Source: a virus
Lineage: Duplodnaviria > Heunggongvirae > Uroviricota > Caudoviricetes
DNA: 48,901 bases
IMG/VR virus record: IMGVR_UViG_3300045988_155985
Reading direction: 5' to 3' (one strand)
Positions 23,565-47,889 of the stretch are shown here, one piece after another. The notes under the pieces are model-generated. The model saw nothing but the letters and a program-made list of their open reading frames with translations. It made no database searches and had not been told where the DNA came from. The translations under genes and the position numbers were made by a program. The number at the start of each line of letters is the position of its first letter. Positions within the stretch are counted from its first letter, which is position 1.

Positions 23565-25799
23565 GTGAGTAAATTATTATTTACGATGACTGACGCCGGG
23601 CGTCAGGAGCTGGTTAATGCCAACAAAACAGGAACAAATAAAGTTGAGATTGTTTCTGTTGGTTTAGGTAGTAGATATTATGTCACGTCAACTTCACAAA
23701 CAAATATAACAAACGAAATAAAACGACTTACCACAATAGGTGGCAAAGTTGTTTCCCCTGATACAATTCATGTAACAGCGAAGGATGATAGTAAAGATGA
23801 GTATGTTGTCCATACAATAGGATTGTATACGAATAAGGGTACGTTGTTTGCTGTATACTCACAAGAACAAGCAATAATAAATAAAGCATCATCTACTATC
23901 GCTTTAATATCAAGTGATATAGCAATTAAAACTCTTGATACTAAAAATATTACATTTGGTGATATTGAGTTTATTAATCCTCCCGCGACCGAAACTGTTG
24001 TTGGGGTGGCAAGATTTGCTAATGAACAAGAAATTGATGCAGGTACAGATGATTCCCTTGCTGTTTCAGCAAAGCGGCTTAAGCAAGCCATTGTGAAACA
24101 TGAGCAATCACGTAATCATCCTGATGCAACTTTAACCTCAAAAGGCTTTGTTCAACTTAGCAGCGCCACCAATAGCACGTCTGAAACGCTTGCTGCGACG
24201 CCTAAGGCTGTTAAGGCAGCATATGACCTTGCTAACGCTAAATACACCGCACAGGACGCTACCACAGCGCGAAAAGGGATTGTTCAGCTCAGTAGTGCCA
24301 CCAACAGCACGTCTGAAACGCTAGCAGCAACACCAAAGGCTGTTAAGGCAGCGTATGATCTTGCGGTCGGAAAGGCTCCGTCCAATCACACGCATTCGTG
24401 GGAGCAGATAACAAATGTGCCTGTAGCTTCACTGACTGTAAGGGGAATAACTCAGCTCAGTAGTGCCACTAACAGCACGTCTGAAACGCTGGCTGCGACA
24501 CCAAAAGCTGTTAAGGCGGTAATGGATGAAACGAACAAGAAAGCGCCCTTAAACAGTCCTGCGCTGACCGGAACACCAACAACACCAACTGCGCCAAAAG
24601 GTACTAACAATACTCAGATCGCAAGCACGGCTTATGTTATGGCTGCGATCGCTGCCCTCGTGGACTCGTCGCCTGACGCACTGAATACGCTGAACGAGCT
24701 GGCTGCGGCGTTGGGCAACGACCCGAATTTTGCGACCACCATGACTAACGCGCTTGCGGGTAAGCAACCGAAAGATGCCACCCTGACGGCGCTGGCCGGG
24801 CTTGCTACTGCGGCAGACAGGTTTCCGTATTTTACGGGGAATGATGTTGCCAGTCTGGCAACCCTGACAAAAGTTGGGCGGGATATTCTTGCGAAATCGA
24901 CCGTTGCCGCCGTTATCGAATACCTCGGTTTGCAGGAAACGGTAAACAGGGCTGGTAACGCCGTGCAAAAAAATGGCGATACCTTGTCCGGTGGGCTTAC
25001 TTTTGAAAATGACTCAATCCTTGCTTGGATTCGAAATACTGACTGGGCGAAGATTGGATTTAAAAATGATGCCGATGGTGACACTGATTCATACATGTGG
25101 TTTGAAACAGGCGACAACGGCAATGAATATTTCAAATGGAGAAGCAAACAAAGCACCACAACAAAAGACCTGATGACGCTGAAATGGGATGCACTAAATA
25201 TTCTTGTTAATGCCGTCATTAATGGCAGCCTTGGAGTTGGTACGACGAATGCGTTAGGTGGTAGCTCTATTGTTCTTGGTGATAATGATACCGGATTTAA
25301 ACAGAATGGAGACGGTATTCTTGATGTTTACGCTAATAGTCAGCGAGTATTCCGCTTTCAGAATGGAGTTGCTATTGCTTTTAAAAACATTCAGGCAGGT
25401 GATAGTAAAAAATTCTCGCTATCCAGCTCCAACACCTCCACAAAGAATGTAACGTTTAATTTATGGGGTGCTTCAACCCGTCCAGTAGTTGCAGAGTTAG
25501 GCGATGAGGCAGGATGGCATTTCTATAGCCAGCGAAATACAGATAACTCGGTAATATTTTCTGTTAACGGTCAGATACAGCCCAGCAACTGGGGGAATTT
25601 TGATTCACGCTATGTAAAAGATGTTCGCCTGGGTACGCGAGTTGTTCAATTGATGGCGCGTGGTGGTCGTTATGAAAAAGCCGGACACGCAATTACCGGA
25701 TTAAGAATCATTGGTGAAGTAGATGGCGATGATGAAGCCATCTTCAGACCAATACAAAAATACATCAATGGCACATGGTATAACGTCGCACAGGTGTAA
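23565..25799 (+). CDS. tail fibre protein: constant N-terminal part plus variable C-terminal part in the currently expressed orientation
   Basis: 744 aa; GTG start after AAGGAA; internal fibre repeats; crossover site at 24923-24946 lies inside the gene. Confidence 0.8.
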   Translation: MSKLLFTMTDAGRQELVNANKTGTNKVEIVSVGLGSRYYVTSTSQTNITNEIKRLTTIGGKVVSPDTIHVTAKDDSKDEYVVHTIGLYTNKGTLFAVYSQEQAIINKASSTIALISSDIAIKTLDTKNITFGDIEFINPPATETVVGVARFANEQEIDAGTDDSLAVSAKRLKQAIVKHEQSRNHPDATLTSKGFVQLSSATNSTSETLAATPKAVKAAYDLANAKYTAQDATTARKGIVQLSSATNSTSETLAATPKAVKAAYDLAVGKAPSNHTHSWEQITNVPVASLTVRGITQLSSATNSTSETLAATPKAVKAVMDETNKKAPLNSPALTGTPTTPTAPKGTNNTQIASTAYVMAAIAALVDSSPDALNTLNELAAALGNDPNFATTMTNALAGKQPKDATLTALAGLATAADRFPYFTGNDVASLATLTKVGRDILAKSTVAAVIEYLGLQETVNRAGNAVQKNGDTLSGGLTFENDSILAWIRNTDWAKIGFKNDADGDTDSYMWFETGDNGNEYFKWRSKQSTTTKDLMTLKWDALNILVNAVINGSLGVGTTNALGGSSIVLGDNDTGFKQNGDGILDVYANSQRVFRFQNGVAIAFKNIQAGDSKKFSLSSSNTSTKNVTFNLWGASTRPVVAELGDEAGWHFYSQRNTDNSVIFSVNGQIQPSNWGNFDSRYVKDVRLGTRVVQLMARGGRYEKAGHAITGLRIIGEVDGDDEAIFRPIQKYINGTWYNVAQV
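24145..24530 (+). repeat. three imperfect direct repeats of about 78 bp inside the tail fibre gene
   Basis: Repeated peptide QLSSATNSTSETLAATPKAVKA; copies at about 24151, 24283 and 24451. Confidence 0.6.
24923..24946. repeat. left inverted repeat / recombination site of the invertible segment
   Basis: CCTCGGTTTGCAGGAAACGGTAAA; exact reverse complement at 27888-27911; core resembles gix/cix sites as recalled. Confidence 0.7.
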
Positions 25800-25802
25800 A
25801 TT

Positions 25803-26336
25803 ATGCAGCATTTAAAAAATATTAAGTCAGGAAATCCAAAAACAAAAGAGCAATATCAGCTAACAAAGAATTTTGATGTTATCTGGTTATGGTCCGAAGA
25901 CGGTAAAAACTGGTATGAAGAACAAAAGAACTTTCAGGAAAACACAATAAAGCTAGCTTACACAGCAGAGGGAATTATTGTTGCTATTGATAAGGATGTA
26001 TCGGCAATTAATCCAGAAGGTTTAAGCGTTGTTGAGTTGCCTGATATAACGGCCAATAGACGGGCTGATATTTCGGGTAACTGGATGTTCAAAGATGGCG
26101 CGGTGATAAAGCGAACTTATACCGAGGAGGAACAGAGGCAGCAGGCAGAGAATGAAAAGCAAAGCCTGTTGCAACTTGTCAGGGATAAAACCCAGCTATG
26201 GGACTCACAGCTACGGCTGGGTATCATTTCCGACGAGAATAAACTAAAATTAACCGAGTGGATGCTCTATGCGCAGAAAGTCGAATCTACAGACACCTCC
26301 AGCCTGCCAGTAACGTTTCCCGAACAACCAGAATGA
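25803..26336 (+). CDS. tail fibre assembly protein (expressed orientation)
   Basis: 177 aa; N-terminus [14 protein letters not shown] shared with the minus-strand paralog. Confidence 0.75.
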
Positions 26337-26364
26337 GACAAGGCCCGCTATCGGGCCTTAATTT

Positions 26365-26892
26365 TTATTCAGGCTTTTGTGGCCATTCAGGATTTGCCGT
26401 ATCCACACGGCTGACCAGAACACTGTAGCGTTCCCATGATTCCAGTCGTGCGCGTTCCTCATCCGTCGCCATATTCAGCCTGACAGCGCGCTCCAGTGGC
26501 TGAATAACGCTTTCTGCTTCGGAAAGTAACGCGGCCTTTTGTGATTCGGCCTGTTGTTGCTGTTCGTCAGCCGTATAAATCCGTTTAACCACAGCTCCGT
26601 CCTTAAACATCCACTTACCGGAATCATCGGCCCGACGATTGGTTGTTATATCGGGAACCTCAACGACGCTAAAACCTTCAGGGTTAAGCGTGGATGCATC
26701 TTTGGTGATGGCGACAATAATATTATTTTCATCGTAAACAATCTTTATGGTGTCTGGCTGAAAGTTTTTCACTTCCTCATACCAGTTTTTTCCGTCCTCA
26801 GAGTAAAGCCAGATAACTCCGTGTTTCTTTGTTAACTCATACTGTTCCAGTGTTTTAGCGTTACCCGCTTTTATGTTCTTTAAGTGCATCAT
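26365..26892 (-). CDS. alternative tail fibre assembly protein (silent orientation)
   Basis: 175 aa; paralogous N-terminus [14 protein letters not shown]; convergent to 25803-26336. Confidence 0.75.
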
Positions 26893-26893
26893 A

Positions 26894-27904
26894 TTAAACG
26901 CTCGCTACATTATACCAGGTGCCATTTATATACTTTTGAACGGGTCTGTAATAAACGCCCGCTATATTATCGGCAGAATTGGACCCTGTATCCTGAACAT
27001 TAATACCAGTCAATACATGACCTGACGGGCACTGGAAATTCCATGTTTGCCAGTTGTTCACGCCATAATATTGCTGTGAACCAAGTCGAACATCTTTCAC
27101 ATAACGGGAATCAAAGTTACCGTAATCTGAGGGATTAACACGCCCTGTAATATTTATGGTTTTATTACTTTGAATACTGCCGGAGACAAAGCGCATAACA
27201 TGGACGTTATTAGCATAAACATCCAGATACCCGTCGCCATTTTGTTTAAATCCCGTGTCATTATCACCCAAAACAATCGAGTTACCGCCAAGAGCACTGG
27301 ATGTACCGATGCCCAGTGCACCATTCAATTGACCTCCAGATAATGACAACGCCCCAACATCAGCAGCAGTCGGTTTAATGTGCGAACTGTAAATTACATA
27401 TACAGTTCCATCTGTCAGACCTGTTGGTTTATTCGCTGTATAAGTTGGTGATGTATGAATCGTTACGCTGGCGTTACTGGTATAATCCCACTGAATATTA
27501 ACACCTGTGGCGTAATTACCTATTTCAACATAAACATCATAGGTATCACCTGATGTATTCACCCATGCAAAATTAGTAAATCCAACCGATGTCCGTCGCC
27601 ATAACGCACCAGTAAGACCTTTTGGATTTCCATTTCCCGCACGAAGAACAAGTTCAGATATACCAGCCTGCATAGGGGAGTTAACATTATATCCAGCACC
27701 ACCAATCAGGCTTATGTAAACCACGGAACTGGCTTGTGGCATTGTTACAGTTGCCAGTTTGAACCATCCAGCACCACCACTAAAAGACATGGTTGTTGAA
27801 TTTGTTGTGCCGATATTACGCAGGAATAGTTTTTTATCGGGAATATCTGCGCCGTTCTGGTTTTTCTGTAATGCGCCAGAAGCCTGATTTACCGTTTCCT
27901 GCAA
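26894..27904 (-). CDS. alternative tail fibre C-terminal variable region (promoterless until inversion)
   Basis: Track start is TTG; encodes LQETVNQ which continues the fibre frame across the crossover site; shares [17 protein letters not shown] and C-terminal [11 protein letters not shown] with the plus-strand fibre. Confidence 0.7.
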
Positions 27905-27911
27905 ACCGAGG
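27888..27911. repeat. right inverted repeat / recombination site of the invertible segment
   Basis: TTTACCGTTTCCTGCAAACCGAGG, reverse complement of 24923-24946. Confidence 0.7.
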
Positions 27912-27985
27912 TTTTTGCGAATTGCCTCTGTGTCGTCTGAACGATATTTTTTCCCGCTTTTAGCAACAATCGCGGTTTAGAAAGT

Positions 27986-28540
27986 ATGCAATATGGTTAT
28001 GCGAGGGTGTCAACTTTTGACCAGAATTTGGAATTACAACTGGAGGCGCTCAGGAGTTTAGGATGTGACCGGATTTTTGAAGATAAAATATCCGGTGCTA
28101 AATCAAAACGACCAGGACTTGATAAGCTACTTAAGGTGTTACGGCCGGGCGATACGGTTATTGTCTGGAAGCTGGACCGAATGGGGCGTTCTCTGATTCA
28201 TCTTGTTGATTTACTTAACCATTTTTTATCAAACAACATTGAGTTTATTTCGATTACGGAAGGGATAAAAATTAGCACTTCAATTGGCCGCTTTGCCTAC
28301 ACGATGCTGAGTGCAGTCGCAGAGATGGAGCGGGAAAATATGATTGAAAGAACGCGTGCAGGATTGGCGGTGGCAAGGGCTAACGGCAGGATAGGAGGAC
28401 GCCGCTCAAAGCTGGCACCAGAGCAATGGGAACAGATCGGAAGGCTTATTGCGAATGGTGTTTCACGTAAGCGGATAGCGATTATCTTCGATGTTACCTT
28501 ATCCACGCTTTACCGCAGGTTTCCGGCTGGGAATCATTGA
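27986..28540 (+). CDS. serine-recombinase DNA invertase (Hin/Gin/Cin family)
   Basis: N-terminal GYARVSTFDQ with catalytic Ser, central resolvase motifs, C-terminal HTH; adjacent to the invertible segment. Confidence 0.9.
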   Translation: MQYGYARVSTFDQNLELQLEALRSLGCDRIFEDKISGAKSKRPGLDKLLKVLRPGDTVIVWKLDRMGRSLIHLVDLLNHFLSNNIEFISITEGIKISTSIGRFAYTMLSAVAEMERENMIERTRAGLAVARANGRIGGRRSKLAPEQWEQIGRLIANGVSRKRIAIIFDVTLSTLYRRFPAGNH

Positions 28541-28685: not shown

Positions 28686-28729
28686 TATGATTGTGGGTGT
28701 CTGGTTGGAAAGTGACCAGATATGGAAAC

Positions 28730-28850
28730 AAAAAGCCCGCAGATAAATCTGCGGGCTTCTTGCGACATCCACGGAAAACCAACAATTAACCATGGGCGCC
28801 TCGACAACTCCCATTATACGTTGGTTTTCCGTGGACGCAAGAGCGAACAT
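28730..28850 (-). ncRNA. candidate CopA-like antisense RNA against the repA leader
   Basis: Minus-strand terminator (hairpin 28735-28756 followed by T-run on the minus strand) and a 15-bp-stem hairpin at 28769-28834 just upstream of the repA ATG. Confidence 0.3.
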
Positions 28851-29699
28851 ATGGATAGACCAATGCCGTCTCTACGTTCAGCTTACGTTTGTAATTTGTC
28901 GCCGGAGTTCCAGCCTCCAAAGCACCATACGCACAAGCTGCCGCTGGTGTTATCTGATGCTTTACAGCGCATTAATGGGCGTGATCTTACGTGTGAGGTT
29001 GCGTTCTACGTTAATCAACCGTCAGAGCGGAAGCGCCGGATAAACGAGCATCGTCGTCGGGCGATTAATGCTGTGATCGCTGCGATTTTGCACCATGTAA
29101 ACATCATTTCTAAGCGGGTTCTGGCTAGTGCTGAGGCGTTGGCTGATTTTTGCGGCCTGTCTACCGTATCCGAAGCTGGGAACAAGTCTATAACGCGCTG
29201 TACAAGGGCGTTGTCGCAACTGAAAGCGTTAGGTTTTATTGATTATGAACGTCGCTGGGATCGGGTGAATAAACAGTATTGGCCAGCGAAAATAGAGATT
29301 CGTGATCAACTGCTGGAAACCGTTGGTATTACTGAACAAGCATGGAGACGTGCGGTTAGCCAGAAACTTAATTACTTCAATGCGAAGAATAGCGAACGGC
29401 TTAAAAAAGCGATAACGGAGGCTGATTATAAGCGTATTGTTATTCAGGAGCAGATGGAGAATGTATGGCGTCAGAGGAAGACGGCCAGAGAGATAAAGGC
29501 AAAACAGAAAGCAGCGGAGAGAGCTGCGCGTCTTGTTCGGGAAAAGGGAGAGGCCGAACTTCGTCATCAAATCACTAGAGAGGTTAGCCAGGAATTTGCT
29601 GATGGCATGTATCCTGGAGCTGACCTTGCATATTTACGATCCCTCGTTGAGCAGCGTTATAACAGGTTAAGAAAGACCTGGAAATCACTCCAACATTAA
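28851..29699 (+). CDS. repA: plasmid replication initiator RepA, IncFII RepA1-like
   Basis: Segment GNKSITRCTRALSQLKALGFIDY matches recalled RepA1 GKLSITRATRALTFLSELGLITY; basic C-terminal half; ATG 28851 preferred over track start 28722 because the leader is structured. Confidence 0.7.
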   Translation: MDRPMPSLRSAYVCNLSPEFQPPKHHTHKLPLVLSDALQRINGRDLTCEVAFYVNQPSERKRRINEHRRRAINAVIAAILHHVNIISKRVLASAEALADFCGLSTVSEAGNKSITRCTRALSQLKALGFIDYERRWDRVNKQYWPAKIEIRDQLLETVGITEQAWRRAVSQKLNYFNAKNSERLKKAITEADYKRIVIQEQMENVWRQRKTAREIKAKQKAAERAARLVREKGEAELRHQITREVSQEFADGMYPGADLAYLRSLVEQRYNRLRKTWKSLQH

Positions 29700-32126: not shown

Positions 32127-32280
32127 TTGGCACCTCAAATTGTTTAAAATGTGTTAATTACAAAATTCAGCCGATACCATGTTCAATGGTATAGCATTGC
32201 TGAAATGTCTTTTTCAAGACCTTGCCAATAAGCTAAACAAAAATGTTTAATGCTTCGCCTAAAAAAACACCAGTTACTAT

Positions 32281-32393
32281 TATTTATATAATTATAGATT
32301 TATATAAAAAGTGCTTTACAGGTGGGAAAAAATTTCCTAAGGTTATACCCGAAACCGAGCGATACCCGCCCTGGTTAAACCGGAGATAACCCG
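32281..32393 (+). promoter_or_regulatory. promoter-operator-leader cassette, copy B
   Basis: AT-rich repeat 32281-32310; -35-like TTTACA 32315-32320; 17-bp spacer with inverted repeat GGAAA-AAA-TTTCC; -10-like TAAGGT 32338-32343; conserved 50-nt leader. Confidence 0.5.
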
Positions 32394-32774
32394 ATGAGCA
32401 TGATTAAAATCCGCAAAAACGCTTTCCTTAAAATTCAAACTATCCTGGCTGGTTCTGTTGGCGTGATTTGCCGTTCTTCCTCAAGCCGCATCGATGACGG
32501 CTACGATGATGAGTATCGTGTGTCCTCATGCGATGAGGCTTTAACCTGGCTGAAGGAGAATCAGGAACGTGCCCAGGTATATCTGGAAACAGAGAACGGC
32601 AATCAGATGCTGCGTATTAGCGGTCGTTATGGATTTGAAACTACATTCATGGCCTATTTTAATCAGGCTTACTTTGACAAGGAGTTGGCTTGGTACACTG
32701 ATCGCATGAGCAAAAGCGAGCCAGCCCCGATTACACCGCCGAACAATAAACCATTTTTATTCCTCGTTAAGTAA
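32394..32774 (+). CDS. hypothetical protein, 126 aa, first gene of cassette B
   Basis: ORF track; ATG within conserved leader context. Confidence 0.5.
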   Translation: MSMIKIRKNAFLKIQTILAGSVGVICRSSSSRIDDGYDDEYRVSSCDEALTWLKENQERAQVYLETENGNQMLRISGRYGFETTFMAYFNQAYFDKELAWYTDRMSKSEPAPITPPNNKPFLFLVK

Positions 32775-32782
32775 ACACAATG

Positions 32783-32809
32783 CGCAAAGTGTCATTTTGA
32801 CACTTTGCG
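32783..32809. promoter_or_regulatory. perfect 27-bp palindrome (12-bp arms), candidate operator
   Basis: CGCAAAGTGTCA-TTT-TGACACTTTGCG; half-site AAAGTGTCATTTTGA recurs at 41116-41130. Confidence 0.35.
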
Positions 32810-32837
32810 AGTGTTAATATTGTGCGAGGAGGGTGCT

Positions 32838-33110
32838 ATGACGGGTTATGAATTGAAATTATGGCGTCGTGGGATGAACTGGACGCAGGAGCGAGCCGCC
32901 GAAGAATTTGGGATATCGTTGGCTACATATAAGCGATATGAGAAGGGGGAGCCGCCGAGGGTCATTGAGATGGCCATTCGCGTTCTGTCGTTTGACGATA
33001 TGGTGAAGGATCTTTCACACCTTGATAAAGACGCGATTCTGTTAAGGCTGCAAACCCTTGTATGGGAAAAGGTTAAAGTGTCGTCAGAATTGGAACAAGG
33101 GATCAAATGA
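32838..33110 (+). CDS. HTH (Xre-like) transcriptional regulator
   Basis: HTH WTQERAAEEFGISLATYKRYE; ATG 32838 after GAGGAGGG (track start 32805 is TTG inside the palindrome). Confidence 0.55.
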   Translation: MTGYELKLWRRGMNWTQERAAEEFGISLATYKRYEKGEPPRVIEMAIRVLSFDDMVKDLSHLDKDAILLRLQTLVWEKVKVSSELEQGIK

Positions 33111-33155
33111 TCCTTTACGGATCGTTTTATGGTGGTGTAATGTAAGCGCCAGAAA

Positions 33156-33186
33156 GACAAAAACCGCCTTGCCGGGCGGTTTTCAG
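33156..33186. terminator. bidirectional rho-independent terminator
   Basis: Hairpin AACCGCC-TTGCCG-GGCGGTT flanked by A-run and T-run. Confidence 0.55.
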
Positions 33187-33919
33187 TCTGAAATTTAAAT
33201 CTTGCTTGGTAGGCTGGATTTAAAAAGACACCTCTTGATTGGGGCGGCTTTCTTGCGTCTAAAGATAATCAAATCTTTTTGCGCCTGCAACCCCTTTTTT
33301 ACTGGTGCCCATTTCAGACTCACGCTCGCGTCGTTGTCTTTGCCACTTCGTTGGGTTCGGTGTTTTTGGGCGAAGTGGCGCGCGGGTATGCGTACAAGGG
33401 GAAAGTGTGCTGACGCAAGCCAGGAACAGCGATCTAAACTAAGTCGAGTCTGAGAAAGGCAGGAGTGCGACAACTCGCCTGTGCTCTATGAGCAGAAGAA
33501 GGTATATCAGACGACCAATGGCATGATTGTGGGCCACAGGGCGCACACGGCGGCGAAGCATTGGAAACGATGTGGAGCTATCTGGTGGCATGAGTTCCGG
33601 TACTCGATCTCGAGCTTTTTTTGATGCTTTTGAGAAGGGGCCGGAACTCCGGTAAAGGGCACCCTGTATGGGGGGAGGGGGGGTTGTGTCTGAAGGGTGG
33701 TTATCGGTTATGGTGGAATTATGATGCGTAGAAAAGCGAGTTTGCTGCAAGCTATTGGGTCCATTATTTCTTTGTTTCCGGCAGTTGATCATTTTCGTCA
33801 TATGGCGACACGTTCCAGTATGGGCTTGGCGCGTGACGCTGACGCTATTCGAAAGGATTTTCAGAAAGTCTCTGGTGTTGATAAGAGAGAAAAGAGTAAG
33901 GGGCCGTAGCCCCTTGTAG

Positions 33920-35065
33920 TTATGGTCTGCTTTTCTGTGCCAGCTTATCAGCACATGTTTTTATCAGATCCTGTAGTGTCCTGGCTGGCAGGTTTGCATC
34001 CAGAACGCTGAGTATGCTGTTGTGATCAGCCTGGTCGACTACTTTGCCTGTCGGTGGTAGTAGCTTGAGCTGAGGATTCAGGTTTTCGTCAAAGCTGATA
34101 AGTGCTCTGGCGTTTCTGAGCAGATCAAGAAGTAAGGCTGATATCACATTTTCCTGAGTCATTGCTGGCAGATTTAGCGCCGCTTTAGTTTTCCCTGTTG
34201 CCTTGTCAAACTCCTTGATTAGTTCCTTCCTGTAGTTCGGTTCCGTTAATAGCCGATTATGCTCTGTTGCCGCGCGGATAATCGTTTTTTCCTGGTATAG
34301 TCGTTTAGCCAGATCACGCTCGTACTGTGTTTTTAACACGCTGCTGATAGCGTTAAAGGCTTCAATGTAGGCCAGCTTGATATCTTTCACGCCTGGACCG
34401 TCGATGCTCTCCATGAGCAAGGTAAATCCGTCTTTTGTCATGCGATAGATTGTTATTTCGCGGTCGCTTCCTTCCAGCGGTCGTTGTTCTTTAAAAAAGT
34501 GACGCGCCGCAGCTGTGCGAGGAATGCGTAACGCATCGATGGCCATAACGATGGAATTGTTTGTGGTGCTGAATGCCTGGGCAACATCGGCTGAGGTTGT
34601 GAGTGGCTCGTTATTGCACACCTTAATGTAAAACATCGGTTTGGCGTTGAGCGTATCGACAACCTCACGAGCATTGTTTGGCGAGACGGTTACGGTCGCG
34701 GCCGTTTGCGCGTTCTGGTTGAAATAGCAGTCTTCCAGTTTTTCGAACACATCCCAAGCCTGATCGGTTTCAAGCATTTTGGCGTGACGTGCAGCCCCGC
34801 GTTCTGTCCAGAGGATGAGGGAGCGGACTTTAGGTGAAACTGGATTTTGTGAGTAGTTTAAAGCTACCCGCAATTCTTTAAGGTCATTACCAACAACTTT
34901 GAAAAAGTGTTTCCCTTCAACGAAACGTACTTTGTTCTCATGATGATTCTGGCGAATACGCACCGGCTCAGTGCCGTAAAGCTGTGCCAGTAACTCGGTA
35001 GTAATGACAGGGATTTGGTTATGCAGGATAGGCTGTAGGGTGTTAACGGTCGGAAGCGTTTTCAT
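33920..35065 (-). CDS. antirepressor (Ant-like) with ORF6N/Rha-like domains
   Basis: 381 aa; N-terminal VITTELLAQLYG and central ADVAQAFS segments resemble antirepressor/Rha-family domains. Confidence 0.7.
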   Translation of the reverse strand: MKTLPTVNTLQPILHNQIPVITTELLAQLYGTEPVRIRQNHHENKVRFVEGKHFFKVVGNDLKELRVALNYSQNPVSPKVRSLILWTERGAARHAKMLETDQAWDVFEKLEDCYFNQNAQTAATVTVSPNNAREVVDTLNAKPMFYIKVCNNEPLTTSADVAQAFSTTNNSIVMAIDALRIPRTAAARHFFKEQRPLEGSDREITIYRMTKDGFTLLMESIDGPGVKDIKLAYIEAFNAISSVLKTQYERDLAKRLYQEKTIIRAATEHNRLLTEPNYRKELIKEFDKATGKTKAALNLPAMTQENVISALLLDLLRNARALISFDENLNPQLKLLPPTGKVVDQADHNSILSVLDANLPARTLQDLIKTCADKLAQKSRP

Positions 35066-35253
35066 TTTGTACCTCCCATAACTACTTTGGTTACGAGGGC
35101 GATTTTTGCGTCAGAAACAGCGTTATCGTTGCTGGCGATGCGCATAGCTTCTCGCTCAATGATTTCAGCCAGGCGGAATTTATCGGCGTATGAGGCTTTC
35201 TTGAGAAGGATCTTTACGAGGTTGACGTAATAGTCATGGGGTAGGTTTGTCAT
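35062..35253 (-). CDS. small protein translationally coupled to ant (icd-like position)
   Basis: 63 aa; stop TGA overlaps ant ATG (ATGA). Confidence 0.45.
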   Translation of the reverse strand: MTNLPHDYYVNLVKILLKKASYADKFRLAEIIEREAMRIASNDNAVSDAKIALVTKVVMGGTK

Positions 35254-35418
35254 TGTGATGATTCCCTTAAAGGTTAAGGATACTCACCACCGTCAGGTTC
35301 CAATCATTGGGTGGTGAGACGTGCAGGGTTGGAACTACCGGACACAATGACGAACCGGCGAGTCTTACGACTCCCCCGCACGCCCCACCATAATTTGGGT
35401 GTAGCAGTGCTTTACGCA

Positions 35419-35440
35419 TAAAAAAACCGCTAACGCGGTA
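35419..35440 (-). terminator. minus-strand rho-independent terminator
   Basis: On the minus strand: hairpin ACCGCGTTAGCGGT followed by TTTTTTT. Confidence 0.5.
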
Positions 35441-35585
35441 TGCGCCATTGTGTCTACGGGGTTCCAATCCCGACCGTAGATTTTGCTACGGCTCGGAAAG
35501 TGTCCACCAATGGCGCATTCATGTCAATACGGCGGGATTTTAACAGAGACAACCACATAGCGTGGGTTTATTGGTAGGCAGAAAC

Positions 35586-35613
35586 AAAAAAACCGCCCTA
35601 TTGAGGACGGTTC
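35586..35613 (-). terminator. minus-strand rho-independent terminator
   Basis: On the minus strand: hairpin AACCGTCC-TCAATA-GGGCGGTT followed by TTTTTTTG. Confidence 0.55.
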
Positions 35614-35760
35614 TTTCGTGCTGATCGGATTCGCGGTCCTTTCAGCATAACGTCGTTGTATAAACAACCACGCAAGCACAAGCGGCGTATCTATTCTTAC
35701 TCAACTGAGGTGAATAGTCCACTATTCATATAAAGAAATTTAGTTCCTTAGTTCATGCAG
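35586..35760 (-). ncRNA. candidate small regulatory RNA upstream of the ant operon (c4-like position)
   Basis: ORF-free leader on the minus strand ending at terminators; self-complementary motifs GGTTCCAA and TTGGAAC nearby; no promoter defined. Confidence 0.25.
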
Positions 35761-35999
35761 AATGAAGTTTTTTAACTTCTTCGGATGTAATTACATGTAA
35801 TAAAAGCATTTGTTATTCCTTCATTATGAAGGCGAGGACGTGTAATATGGCTTGGGGCCTTTTCGCCGATTCGCACCCGGGCACCGACTTTAAGGAAAGG
35901 ATCATCCACTTGCCGTACACGCAAGCACAAGCGGTGTGCTTGCTCTCGCGTCATTTTCGTCGGTGGAGATGCCGTGAAACGGCCTGTAAGGGCCACACA

Positions 36000-36122
36000 A
36001 TGAAAAAATACTACATGTGTATTTTTATCGTTGTTACTGGAGCTTTGTTTACGCCACATGGGGAGGGTTGGAAGATTACTGATAACGCTCTGAATGTGAC
36101 GATAAACATTAGCAGCAAGTAG
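36000..36122 (+). CDS. small hydrophobic peptide, 40 aa
   Basis: MKKYYMCIFIVVTGALF N-terminus; ATG 36000; strong terminator immediately downstream. Confidence 0.3.
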   Translation: MKKYYMCIFIVVTGALFTPHGEGWKITDNALNVTINISSK

Positions 36123-36128
36123 CGATTA

Positions 36129-36150
36129 GGCCCCTTCGGGGGCCTTTTTT
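36129..36150 (+). terminator. rho-independent terminator
   Basis: Hairpin GGCCCC-TTCG-GGGGCC followed by TTTTTT. Confidence 0.6.
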
Positions 36151-36372
36151 ATGGTTGAATTTAAACGCTGGAGCGCATTAAGCCTTTCAGAACTGCTTCA
36201 CGTACCCATTCTGGCCTGGTAGATAGCAGGGCAAATAAGCAACCAGCTTGCAGCCGTTTGAGGTCGGTTAGACGAGTTTTCAGTAACCGTGTATATTGTT
36301 GTTCGGACATAACAAATTCCCCTTGTTGTGTCGCGACGGCCAACAGTTGGCGCTGGAGGCCGTCACCTTCTC

Positions 36373-36627
36373 TTACTTCTGGTTGTATTGAGCCTTGAGT
36401 AACTCAAAAGACTTTGTCAGCACTTCTTTCAATGACATATCCATTGAGCTGGCGAACGTTTTGTACTCGCGTTTAAATTCAGGGTCGACGTTAAACGCCA
36501 TTTGTGCCCCACCTGATTTGGTTCTGGCTGGCGTTTCAGTCGGGTCGAAAACCTGCGGTTGTTCGATCGATGGCGGTACGCCTTTGCTGTTCTTCTTTGG
36601 TGGTTTTGATGGTGCGGCCATGTGCAT
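36373..36627 (-). CDS. small partition/centromere-binding protein, ParG-like (ribbon-helix-helix)
   Basis: 84 aa downstream of parA; basic flexible N-terminus and C-terminal RHH-like segment. Confidence 0.55.
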   Translation of the reverse strand: MHMAAPSKPPKKNSKGVPPSIEQPQVFDPTETPARTKSGGAQMAFNVDPEFKREYKTFASSMDMSLKEVLTKSFELLKAQYNQK

Positions 36628-47813: not shown

Positions 47814-47889
47814 GGCCCCTTAGCTCAGTGGTTAGAGCAGGCGACTCATAATCGCACGGTCATCGGTTCAAATCCGGTAGGGGCCACCA
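47814..47889 (+). tRNA. tRNA with CAU anticodon (Met or lysidine-dependent Ile2; resembles ileX-type)
   Basis: Perfect 7-bp acceptor stem GGCCCCT/AGGGGCC; D-arm GCTC/GAGC; anticodon loop CTCATAA; T-arm with TTCAAAT; encoded 3' CCA. Confidence 0.85.

What the first reader, a model, noticed from the sequence alone, without database searches (positions are those of the whole stretch)
24923..27911. Invertible tail-fibre segment with perfect 24-bp inverted repeats
CCTCGGTTTGCAGGAAACGGTAAA at 24923-24946 is exactly inverted at 27888-27911. The segment carries the C-terminal fibre exon plus assembly gene in each orientation, with a Hin/Gin-type invertase next door. The silent exon (26894-27904) continues the fibre reading frame across the crossover site, so its apparent start is a track artefact. 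This is a host-range switch; both receptor-binding variants are candidates for different host specificity.
Basis: partly seen in the sequence, partly recalled or inferred. Interest (0 to 1): 0.5.

Follow-up and report, generated by a model that had tools for sequence, protein, structure and literature searches.

The report
Invertible tail-fibre host-range switch
This is a classical Mu/P1-type DNA-inversion switch that lets a ~49-kb phage-plasmid swap the receptor-binding tip of its tail fibre; it is real and very probably active, but it is a well-known kind of device.

Summary
The 24-bp inverted repeat is exact and not chance. It is the inner part of two 26-bp gix/cix-like crossover sites, with exchange predicted at TC 24925-6 and GA 27908-9.

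- **Layout:** the ~3-kb segment holds two convergent cassettes, each a fibre C-terminus plus its chaperone. A Gin-like serine invertase follows, with an enhancer-like element in its 5' end.
- **Frame:** flipping the segment in silico gives an intact 791-aa fibre.
- **Expressed tip:** 97.6% identical to the P2 gpH C-terminus.
- **Silent tip:** it is the expressed tip in a sibling plasmid and in a P2-like prophage.
- **Evidence of inversion:** sibling phage-plasmids carry the same segment in both orientations. Two 48,056-bp plasmids are 99.99% identical and differ only by this flip. Another flipped pair, ATCC 25922 plasmid and p25POL-A, has an invertase identical to the window's.

This is a new member of a known kind.

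One unusual feature: the invertase belongs to a conserved sub-clade. It lacks residues that control Fis/enhancer activation in Hin (Asp for the invariant Lys47; Ala-Tyr-Thr for Phe105-Phe106-His107). Its Fis-contact patch and enhancer are kept.

Host-range consequences are inferred, not shown.

The parts
23565..24924 (+). Constant N-terminal part of the tail-fibre gene (Sc, about 453 codons), outside the invertible segment. It contains Phage_fiber_2 repeats.
   Evidence: ORF. Pfam PF03406, E 7.5e-58. 98-99% aa identical in sibling plasmids whatever cassette follows it.
24913..24938 (-). Left 26-bp crossover site, gix/cix-like: TTATCGAATACC-TC-GGTTTGCAGGAA on the + strand. The predicted exchange point is the core TC at 24925-24926.
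   Evidence: 32/36 identical to the annotated D108 G-segment repeat. Placed against P1 cixL and its annotated crossover. Homology with relatives breaks here.
24923..24946 (+).
24927..25799 (+). Sv: the currently expressed variable C-terminal fibre exon (about 291 codons), of P2 gpH type.
   Evidence: 97.6% aa identical to the C-terminus of P2 gpH, starting exactly at the site. 99.7% identical to the silent copy in the C311 prophage, and also in the silent position in CP070025.
25803..26336 (+). U: tail-fibre assembly chaperone paired with Sv.
   Evidence: Pfam Caudo_TAP, E 2.5e-34.
26340..26359 (+). G+C-rich hairpin between the convergent cassettes. It is terminator-like, with a T-run on the + strand only.
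   Evidence: D108 annotates terminators on both strands at the same place.
26365..26892 (-). U': chaperone paired with the silent exon.
   Evidence: Pfam Caudo_TAP, E 1.4e-37. 57% identical to U.
26894..27907 (-). Sv': the silent alternative C-terminal fibre exon (about 338 codons). It has no start of its own.
   Evidence: In-silico inversion gives a 791-aa fibre. 98.2% aa identical to the expressed fibre tip of sibling plasmid C311_p2, and 97% to the expressed tip of the C311 prophage. Only 37.6% identical to Sv over the last 234 aa.
27888..27911 (-). Right copy of the perfect 24-bp inverted repeat.
27896..27921 (+). Right 26-bp crossover site: TTCCTGCAAACC-GA-GGTTTTTGCGAA. The predicted exchange point is the core GA at 27908-27909.
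   Evidence: The outer half-site stays with the invertase flank in all 16 siblings, while the inner half-site travels with the segment.
27986..28540 (+). DNA invertase, a small serine recombinase of 184 aa with catalytic Ser9.
   Evidence: Pfam Resolvase + HTH_7. Collinear with the Gin crystal structure over residues 2-181, E 1.6e-61. Protein identical to that of the ATCC 25922 plasmid and p25POL-A, which are flips of each other.
28004..28075 (+). Enhancer-like element inside the 5' end of the invertase gene. It has two Fis-consensus 15-mers, 28008-28022 and 28056-28070, with centres 48 bp apart, about 106 bp from the right crossover core.
   Evidence: Homologous to nt 19-90 of cin, which the P1 record annotates as the Cin enhancer. 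Both cores are kept in all 8 invertase genes compared, although the encoded residues differ. Fis binding was not tested.

Best explanation
This is a G-segment-type programmed DNA inversion that switches the receptor-binding end of the tail fibre of a ~49-kb phage-plasmid. The element combines an IncFII-type RepA with a P2/Mu-like contractile tail.

Proposed mechanism:
1. The serine invertase (27986-28540) binds as dimers to the two 26-bp sites, 24913-24938 and 27896-27921.
2. It synapses them, together with the Fis-bound enhancer in the 5' end of its own gene.
3. It makes 2-nt staggered cuts at the identical, non-palindromic cores (TC/GA), rotates one half of the tetramer by 180 degrees and religates.

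Consequences for expression:
- The fibre's constant N-terminal 453 codons and its promoter stay outside the segment.
- In the present orientation they are fused to Sv (P2 gpH-type tip) and followed by chaperone U.
- After inversion they are fused in frame to Sv' and followed by chaperone U'.
- A lysogen population therefore releases two virion types with different adsorption specificity.

Shown here: the sites, the frames, the cassettes, the recombinase family, and both orientations in near-identical siblings. Inferred: Fis dependence, switching rate, and the host-range difference.
For: - **Repeat:** exact, with 0/100 shuffles matching.
- **Sites:** 32/36 identical to the D108/Mu repeat and alignable to P1 cixL with its annotated crossover.
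- **Frame:** in-frame fusion after in-silico inversion gives 791 aa.
- **Cassettes:** two Caudo_TAP chaperones and two dissimilar fibre tips.
- **Recombinase:** Resolvase + HTH_7, collinear with Gin at E 1.6e-61, Ser9 and Arg42 kept.
- **Enhancer:** a homologue of the annotated Cin enhancer, with both Fis cores at 48-bp spacing, conserved across 8 divergent invertase genes.
- **Both orientations in nature:**
  - CP057727 and CP099296 are both 48,056 bp. Their flanks differ by 2 mismatches in 19,428 bp and 3 in 25,740 bp. The 2,957-bp segment is inverted, with 1 mismatch.
  - ATCC 25922 plasmid versus p25POL-A and CP035864 versus CP025877 are also 100% inverted.
  - The window's silent tip is expressed in C311_p2, and its expressed tip is silent in CP070025.
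- **Exchange point:** an inner half-site SNP moves with the segment while the outer half-sites stay. This confines exchange to about 11 bp around the core.
- **Same machinery:** the window's invertase is identical in protein to that of the ATCC 25922 plasmid and p25POL-A. The 190 nt spanning the right site and the enhancer differ by 0-1 nt.
- **Live phages:** relatives (Yersinia phages vB_YpM_39/41/44) are deposited as phages isolated on Y. pestis.
Against: - No read-level data exist for this molecule, so its own switching is unobserved.
- All seven assemblies of the ATCC 25922 48,488-bp plasmid are in one orientation. This suggests that switching is slow or that assemblies report the majority form.
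- The invertase departs from Hin/Gin/Cin at residues that matter experimentally. It has Asp46 where 15 aligned invertases have Lys (Hin K47). It has Ala104-Tyr105 where Hin has Phe105-Phe106; in Hin, F105A gave no inversion in vivo and F106Y very little (PMC3798978, PMC4513852).
- No sigma-70-like promoter passed the scan between the right site and the invertase start.
- The host-range effect is untested.
Confidence: 0.88

Rival explanations
1. The switch is a frozen relic in this copy. The architecture is inherited, but this invertase is weak or inactive. The orientation differences among relatives would then be old events, or catalysed in trans by other resident invertases such as Pin of e14 or P2-like prophage invertases.
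For: - Ala104/Tyr105/Asp46 sit at positions where the Hin mutants F105A, F106Y and K47A are null, very weak and about 3-fold down, respectively.
- All seven ATCC 25922 plasmid assemblies share one orientation.
- P2 carries a fixed copy of the same tip, with a relic site 32/34 identical and no partner. Freezing therefore does happen.
- P2-like prophages with a Gin-like invertase serve the same segment, so action in trans is plausible.
Against: - The variant residues are conserved across about 86 protein clusters spanning 65-99% identity. Every member examined lies beside convergent fibre/chaperone cassettes, in Mu-like, P1-like and this family. That is purifying selection on a working enzyme.
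- Two plasmids differing by 6 substitutions in 48 kb differ by the flip, so inversion is recent.
- The sites, cores and enhancer are intact and identical to those of flipped siblings.
Confidence: 0.07
2. The orientation differences arise from RecA-dependent homologous recombination between the short inverted repeats, or from wholesale cassette replacement, rather than from site-specific recombination.
For: - The repeats are 24-36 bp of perfect identity.
- Cassette mosaicism is rampant. Many siblings share only one cassette with the window, and homology breaks at the repeat.
Against: - 24-36 bp is near the lower limit for RecA-mediated exchange (general knowledge, not tested here).
- In the two informative flips, the SNP at position 6 of the inner half-site moved with the segment. 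Exchange therefore lay in the outer ~11 bp that contain the core, not spread along the repeat.
- A dedicated invertase with an enhancer lies adjacent in every member.
- Replacement explains the mosaics. It does not explain a clean flip between 99.99% identical plasmids.
Confidence: 0.03
3. The primary role of the inversion is in the lysogen, for example producing a chimeric fibre-like protein that blocks adsorption of other phages, as reported for PinQ/PinR in cryptic prophages. Virion host range would be secondary.
For: Papers in the library report that inversion by PinQ (PMC12529663) and PinR (10.1101/2025.03.28.646004) in cryptic prophages inhibits T2 adsorption (abstracts only).
Against: - The element has a complete virion gene set, and close relatives were isolated as infectious phages.
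- Both exons are full receptor-binding tips, each with a matched chaperone, placed in a late tail operon.
- Nothing here suggests expression in the lysogen.
Confidence: 0.02

Closest known systems
Bacteriophage Mu/D108 G segment with Gin
   Same: - A ~3-kb segment ordered Sc | Sv-U, U'-Sv' | invertase.
- Invertase immediately outside, next to the silent exon and reading away from the segment.
- The crossover repeat is 32/36 identical, including the codons for LQETVN.
- Terminator hairpin between U and U'.
- Enhancer in the 5' end of the invertase gene.
   Different: - The invertase is only about 56% identical to Gin and belongs to a different sub-clade (F-A-Y-T-x-L and Asp46, versus F-F-F-H-x-M and Lys46).
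- The fibre tips differ (52% for Sv; only the last ~80 aa align for Sv').
- The host element is a plasmid-prophage with IncFII-type RepA, not a transposable phage.
Bacteriophage P1 C segment with Cin (and P1-like SJ46/D6-type phage-plasmids)
   Same: - A phage-plasmid with an invertible S/U-U'/S' segment and an annotated enhancer at nt 19-90 of cin, homologous to window 28004-28075.
- The SJ46-type invertase is 88% identical to the window's. Its locus shares the same outer half-site and flank, GGTTTTTGCGAATTGC.
   Different: - P1's C segment is larger (P1 record 32225-36480, about 4.26 kb), and cin lies on the opposite side of the segment from the fibre constant part.
- P1 Cin is a canonical FFFH invertase.
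- The rest of the genome is unrelated in size and organisation.
Bacteriophage P2 gpH/gpG (fixed tail fibre)
   Same: - The expressed tip Sv is 97.6% aa identical to gpH residues ~378-669.
- The baseplate J/I-H-G gene order is P2-like.
- P2 H carries a 32/34-identical relic of the left site at codon 375.
   Different: - P2 has no inverted partner site, no second cassette and no invertase in that locus, so its specificity is fixed.
P2-like prophages with an invertible H segment (Escherichia phage P88; prophages of E. coli C311 and TUM14668)
   Same: - The C311 prophage carries the whole segment at 98.4% nt identity, bounded exactly by the crossover sites and in the opposite state (Sv' expressed).
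- C311 and TUM14668 have collinear flanks with the core of the segment inverted.
   Different: - Their invertase is Gin-like in its N-terminal two thirds and about 56% identical to the window's.
- The invertase-side outer half-site differs (GGTTTTAGATAA).
- They are integrated prophages, not plasmids.

Membership tests
Fis/enhancer-dependent DNA invertases (Gin/Hin/Cin/Pin) | Small serine recombinase: N-terminal catalytic domain with the nucleophilic Ser (Gin S9 / Hin S10), C-terminal HTH, about 185-195 aa. | tested here: met
   PF00239 (E 9.7e-45) plus PF02796. Collinear with Gin structure 3UJ3 over residues 2-181, E 1.6e-61. S9 and R42 are kept in nearly all of the 116 aligned homologues (S9 in 115, R42 in all).
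Fis/enhancer-dependent DNA invertases (Gin/Hin/Cin/Pin) | Two 26-bp imperfectly palindromic sites in inverted orientation, with identical non-palindromic 2-bp cores. | tested here: met
   Sites 24913-24938 and 27896-27921, with cores TC and GA. Aligned to the D108 repeats and to P1 cixL with its annotated crossover. Only two sites are present.
Fis/enhancer-dependent DNA invertases (Gin/Hin/Cin/Pin) | Recombinational enhancer with two Fis sites, centres 48 bp apart, in cis about 100 bp from one site, inside the 5' end of the invertase gene. | tested here: inconclusive
   At sequence level the feature is met. The region is homologous to the annotated Cin enhancer, with cores at 28008-28022 and 28056-28070, conserved in 8 of 8 genes. 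But the consensus is loose (about 7 perfect matches per kb per strand by chance), the region is coding, and Fis binding is not testable here. The 48-bp spacing rule is from my own knowledge (Johnson, Glasgow & Simon 1987).
Fis/enhancer-dependent DNA invertases (Gin/Hin/Cin/Pin) | Fis-contact patch on DBD helix 1 (Hin Q151, R154, L155), conserved in invertases but not in resolvases (PMC3798978). | tested here: met
   Window Q150, R153 and L154, kept in nearly all clade members.
Fis/enhancer-dependent DNA invertases (Gin/Hin/Cin/Pin) | Basic helix B. [quoted passage not shown] | tested here: not met
   Window D46-K47-x-x-K50. The invariant Lys is Asp here, and D or N throughout the sub-clade. 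The other two basic residues are kept.
Fis/enhancer-dependent DNA invertases (Gin/Hin/Cin/Pin) | Phenylalanine switch and regulatory residues on helix E (Hin F105, F106, H107, M109; PMC4513852). | tested here: not met
   Window A104, Y105, T106 and L108, conserved in about 86 clusters at 65% identity or more. Gin and Cin have F, F, H and M.
Mu G / P1 C-type invertible tail-fibre segment | The constant fibre N-terminus and its promoter lie outside the segment. Two alternative C-terminal exons lie inside in opposite orientation, and each fuses in frame across the site. | tested here: met
   744-aa fibre as read, 791-aa fibre after in-silico inversion. The silent exon has no start of its own, and its frame is open across the site.
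Mu G / P1 C-type invertible tail-fibre segment | Each exon is followed by its own assembly chaperone (U/U'). | tested here: met
   Two convergent Caudo_TAP genes, 57% identical to each other.
Mu G / P1 C-type invertible tail-fibre segment | Both orientations occur in populations. | tested here: met
   Met at family level. There are clean flips between near-identical sibling plasmids, with invertase, site and enhancer identical to the window's. It cannot be tested for this molecule without reads.
Mu G / P1 C-type invertible tail-fibre segment | The two orientations give different host ranges. | not testable with these tools
   Only indirect evidence is available. The tips are 37.6% identical over 234 aa, and the N-terminal ~166 aa of Sv' are unrelated to Sv. 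Sv equals the P2 gpH tip.
Shufflon (R64 Rci) or multiple-inversion systems (p15B Min) | More than two crossover sites delimiting several invertible sub-segments. Shufflons also use a tyrosine recombinase. | tested here: not met
   Exactly two sites are present, and the recombinase is of the serine type.

The most novel reading that the evidence does not exclude
The invertase represents a conserved, uncharacterised sub-lineage of tail-fibre DNA invertases. It occurs in this phage-plasmid family, in SJ46/P1-like elements, and in Mu-like prophages of Citrobacter and Salmonella. Its activation gate is built differently from Hin/Gin/Cin:
- Asp or Asn replaces the invariant helix-B lysine.
- Ala-Tyr-Thr-x-Leu replaces the Phe-Phe-His-x-Met switch.

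The Fis patch and the enhancer are nonetheless retained. If so, this sub-lineage may differ in Fis/enhancer dependence, switching rate or directionality control. It would be a natural experiment on how serine-invertase gating can be rewired.
Probability: 0.2. Interest if true: 0.45.

Novelty: new member of a known kind. Interest (0 to 1): 0.25.

Why it matters
The mechanism teaches little that Mu, P1 and e14 did not already show.

- **For annotation:** the 'silent' 336-aa ORF and the second chaperone should be annotated as the alternative end of the fibre gene, not as separate 'phage tail protein' or 'hypothetical' genes. That is how most sibling records list them.
- **For host-range prediction:** any prediction for this widespread ~48-kb E. 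coli/Yersinia phage-plasmid family must consider both tips.
- **For evolution:** the same 3-kb module, bounded exactly by the crossover sites, is shared at 98% identity with a P2-like prophage that uses a different invertase. The expressed tip is essentially P2 gpH. The crossover sites therefore also act as module boundaries for exchange of receptor-binding cassettes among P2-like, Mu-like, P1-like and plasmid-borne phages.
- **For enzymology:** the variant invertase sub-clade is a modest lead.

Tried and rejected
- **Re-sequenced strain:** I looked for orientation polymorphism among assemblies of one strain. All seven ATCC 25922 48,488-bp plasmid records have the same orientation. This briefly looked like evidence against activity, until p25POL-A proved to be the exact flip.
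- **First comparisons:** CP070025, C311_p2, and the L004/L005 prophage pair showed cassettes in swapped positions, but always with one cassette replaced. They were not clean flips. A panel of 12 further siblings was needed.
- **Named phage-plasmid group:** pSLy3 belongs to the SSU5 supergroup and is unrelated. No paper in the library mentions the closest records.
- **Characterised member of the variant clade:** I searched for candidates such as Fin of Fels-2 or PinB and found none. The best named member is the unstudied SJ46 invertase.
- **Fis consensus scans:** GNNYRNNWNNYRNNC missed the proximal core, which has T at -7. The looser KNNYRNNWNNYRNNM pattern occurs about 7 times per kb per strand, so I rely on homology to the annotated Cin enhancer instead.
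- **Multi-site shufflon or Min-type system:** rejected, as there are only two sites.
- **Promoter scan:** it gave fewer hits than the shuffles and none upstream of the invertase, so no promoter is claimed.
- **Failed call:** one search failed because of a frame error and was redone.

Full report
**Observation.** The 24-mer CCTCGGTTTGCAGGAAACGGTAAA is present at 24923-24946 on the + strand and at 27888-27911 on the - strand, with no mismatch. None of 100 dinucleotide-preserving shuffles gave a single match. A general repeat scan recovers it as a 55-nt, 78% inverted repeat. The scan also finds longer, weaker inverted similarities inside the segment (348 nt at 71%, 118 nt at 75%), which reflect homology between the two cassettes.
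- fibre 23565-25799 (+), 744 aa
- chaperone 25803-26336 (+)
- chaperone 26365-26892 (-)
- a 336-aa ORF 26894-27904 (-)
- a 184-aa ORF 27986-28540 (+)

**What the window is.** Pfam identifies baseplate J and P2 tail protein I upstream, and Phage_fiber_2 repeats in the fibre. It also finds two Caudo_TAP chaperones, a Resolvase+HTH_7 recombinase, and an IncFII-type RepA at 28722-29699 immediately downstream. The region matches about 500 plasmid records, nearly all non-mobilizable ~48-kb Escherichia plasmids. It also matches three Yersinia phages (vB_YpM_39/41/44, ~49 kb) isolated on Y. pestis EV76. The annotated map of the ATCC 25922 48,488-bp plasmid shows a full myovirus gene set plus RepA, ParA, ParB-like genes and a RelE/ParE toxin-antitoxin pair. 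The window is therefore essentially one genome of a phage-plasmid family. I found no paper describing this family.

**The sites.** Read against D108/Mu, the left junction TTATCGAATACCTCGGTTTGCAGGAAACGGTAAACA is 32/36 identical to the annotated G-segment repeat TTATCCAAAACGTCGGTTTACAGGAAACGGTAAACA. P1's record annotates cixL and places the crossover inside the central dinucleotide. By that homology the sites are 26 bp long:
- left 24913-24938, outer half TTATCGAATACC, core TC, inner half GGTTTGCAGGAA
- right 27896-27921, inner half TTCCTGCAAACC, core GA, outer half GGTTTTTGCGAA

The cores are identical in inverted orientation and non-palindromic, as inversion requires. No other site exists in the window. 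A 20-nt search with up to 4 mismatches finds two. The palindromic core motif AAACCNNGGTTT gives only two further one-mismatch hits, which is chance level.

**Frames and cassettes.**
- Inverting 24923-27911 in silico yields an uninterrupted 791-aa fibre.
- The silent exon's frame is open for 25 codons upstream of its nominal TTG, across the site, with no start codon. The TTG is simply the Leu codon of LGLQETVN.
- The two tips are only 37.6% identical over the last 234 aa, and the N-terminal ~166 aa of Sv' are unrelated to Sv.
- The chaperones are 57% identical.
- A G+C-rich hairpin sits between the convergent chaperone genes at 26340-26359, with a T-run on the + strand only. D108 annotates terminators on both strands there.

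**What the tips are.**
- Sv, the expressed tip, is 97.6% aa identical to the C-terminus of P2 gpH. The homology starts exactly at the site.
- P2 H has a 32/34-identical relic of the left site at codon 375 and no partner. P2 is thus a frozen version of this cassette.
- Sv' is 98.2% identical to the expressed fibre tip of sibling plasmid C311_p2. It is 97% identical to the expressed tip of a P2-like prophage in the E. coli C311 chromosome.
- Sv' is silent in the ATCC 25922 plasmid and in the TUM14668 prophage.
- Both tips are therefore used in nature.

**The recombinase.** It aligns end to end with the Gin crystal structure (E 1.6e-61) and is about 56% identical to D108 Gin. Ser9 and Arg42 are present. 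I used two experimental papers to list features of the Fis/enhancer-dependent subclass.
- *Met:* the Fis-contact patch (Hin Q151/R154/L155) is present (PMC3798978).
- *Not met:* the helix-B lysine, described as invariant in 15 invertases (Hin K47), is Asp46 here. K47A lowered Hin inversion about 3-fold.
- *Not met:* the helix-E residues F105-F106-H107-x-M109 of Hin are A104-Y105-T106-x-L108 here. In Hin, F105A gave no inversion in vivo and F106Y very little (PMC4513852).

A database search shows that this is not decay. Among the 116 full-length (>=175 aa) sequences aligned from the 120 best homologues, about 86 clusters at 65-99% identity keep F-A-Y-T-x-L and D/N46. More distant ones revert to the Gin pattern. 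Members at 88% identity (the protein is also in Salmonella phage SJ46; the contig examined shows a P1-like context), 80% (Citrobacter, Mu-like prophage) and 70% (Salmonella, Mu-like prophage) all sit beside convergent fibre/chaperone cassettes. It is a conserved sub-lineage of fibre invertases with no characterised member that I could find.

**The enhancer.** P1's record annotates the Cin enhancer at nt 19-90 of cin. The homologous stretch here is 28004-28075. It holds two 15-mers fitting the degenerate Fis consensus KNNYRNNWNNYRNNM: TGTCAACTTTTGACC at 28008-28022 and GTTTAGGATGTGACC at 28056-28070. Their centres are 48 bp apart, and the nearer one is about 106 bp from the right core. Both 15-mers fit in all eight invertase genes compared, including the 64-80% identical clade members. 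This holds although the residues encoded over the second core vary (SLGCDR, RLKCDQ, RAECEQ, RANCEL, SAGCEL, CAGCEQ). The consensus alone is weak evidence, at about 7 perfect matches per kb per strand. The argument rests on homology and on nucleotide conservation across amino-acid change. Fis binding itself is untested.

1. An in-silico inverted right junction (Sv next to the invertase) matches CP070025 over 100% of its length at 99.3%.
2. The as-is junction matches the ATCC 25922-type plasmids.
3. In C311_p2, whose flanks are 98.3-98.7% identical to the window, window 25745-27915 lies inverted and begins exactly at the left site.
4. I fetched 16 sibling loci and cut out the segment between the cores. 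Several pairs match over 100% of the segment in inverted orientation while the flanks are collinear: ATCC 25922 plasmid versus p25POL-A, CP035864 versus CP025877, and CP057727 versus MW390530, CP099296 and CP117657.
5. Whole-plasmid comparison of CP057727 and CP099296, both 48,056 bp and from different isolates, gives:
   - 19,428 bp with 2 mismatches
   - 25,740 bp with 3 mismatches
   - the 2,957-bp segment inverted, with 1 mismatch
6. In the informative flips a G/A polymorphism at position 6 of the inner half-site travels with the segment, while the outer half-sites never move. This confines exchange to ACC-TC-GGTTT.
7. The window's invertase is identical in protein to that of the ATCC 25922 plasmid and p25POL-A. 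The 190 nt covering the right site and the enhancer differ by 0-1 nt.

All seven assemblies of the ATCC 25922 plasmid share one orientation. That fits slow switching plus majority-rule assembly, but it is a caution.

**Module exchange.** The whole segment (window 24909-27915) is 98.4% identical to a stretch of the C311 chromosome. There it lies in a P2-like prophage in the opposite state, served by a Gin-like invertase only about 56% identical to the window's. The related TUM14668 prophage has collinear flanks with the core of the segment inverted. Many siblings share only one cassette with the window, with homology breaking at the repeat. The crossover sites are thus also the seams along which receptor-binding cassettes move between P2-like, Mu-like, P1-like and plasmid-borne phages.

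**Verdict.** This is a Mu G / P1 C-type host-range switch, a new member of a known kind, and very probably active. The only departure from the textbook is the invertase sub-clade with altered gating residues. I rate that a modest lead (probability 0.2 that it behaves differently in regulation). The host-range difference and switching in this particular molecule remain to be shown experimentally.

Noticed in passing
window 27986-28540: The invertase belongs to a conserved sub-clade (about 86 clusters at 65-99% identity). It has Asp/Asn at the helix-B position that is 'always lysine' in Hin-type invertases, and F-A-Y-T-x-L in place of F-F-F-H-x-M on helix E. No characterised member was found. 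The closest named member is the Salmonella phage SJ46 invertase (88%).
   Followed up: partly
window 24909-27915; L004 4001-7007 (E. coli C311 chromosome): The complete invertible segment is 98.4% identical to one in a P2-like prophage that has unrelated flanks and a different invertase, and the match is bounded exactly by the crossover sites. The same strain also carries a sibling phage-plasmid (C311_p2) that expresses the same Sv' tip. This suggests cassette exchange between co-resident elements.
   Followed up: partly
window 35307-35395 (-), 35420-35492 (-), 35853-36150 (+): Rfam gathering-level hits to C4 antisense RNA (the P1/P7-type immunity RNA), isrK and ryfA lie clustered together. 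In relatives an ORF6N/antirepressor-like gene lies in the corresponding part of the map, so this is possibly a P1-like immI-type control region.
   Followed up: no
window 47814-47889 (+): There is a single tRNA gene with anticodon CAT. ARAGORN calls it Met. PGAP annotates a tRNA gene in the ATCC 25922 plasmid, at a similar place in the map, as tRNA-Ile, which would imply lysidine modification.
   Followed up: no
window 24140-24532: Three direct repeats of about 93 nt (71-85% identical to the reference copy; spacing 132 and 168 nt) encode the Phage_fiber_2 repeats in the constant part of the fibre. The ATCC 25922-type sibling aligns with a longer constant part (486 versus 452 columns), so repeat number or length varies in the family.
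   Followed up: no
window 26340-26369: The hairpin between the convergent chaperone genes has a T-run only on the + strand. After inversion the late transcript would meet the hairpin without a T-tail. It might then read through antisense to U/Sv and into the invertase gene, which is a possible orientation-dependent effect on invertase expression.
   Followed up: no
window 28729-28762 and 28768-28835: Between the invertase and the body of repA lie a near-perfect hairpin (16-nt arms, 2-nt loop) and a perfect 16-bp inverted repeat with a 36-nt spacer. They fall inside the 5' end of the longest repA ORF. Siblings annotate repA with either 981-nt or 837-nt lengths. This is possibly a copy-control RNA or leader structure of the IncFII-type replicon.
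   Followed up: no
L012, L003 (Yersinia phages vB_YpM_41 and vB_YpM_44): The segments of these two phages match 87% in the same orientation and also 39% in inverted orientation. This hints at partly duplicated or exchanged cassette parts within the segment.
   Followed up: no
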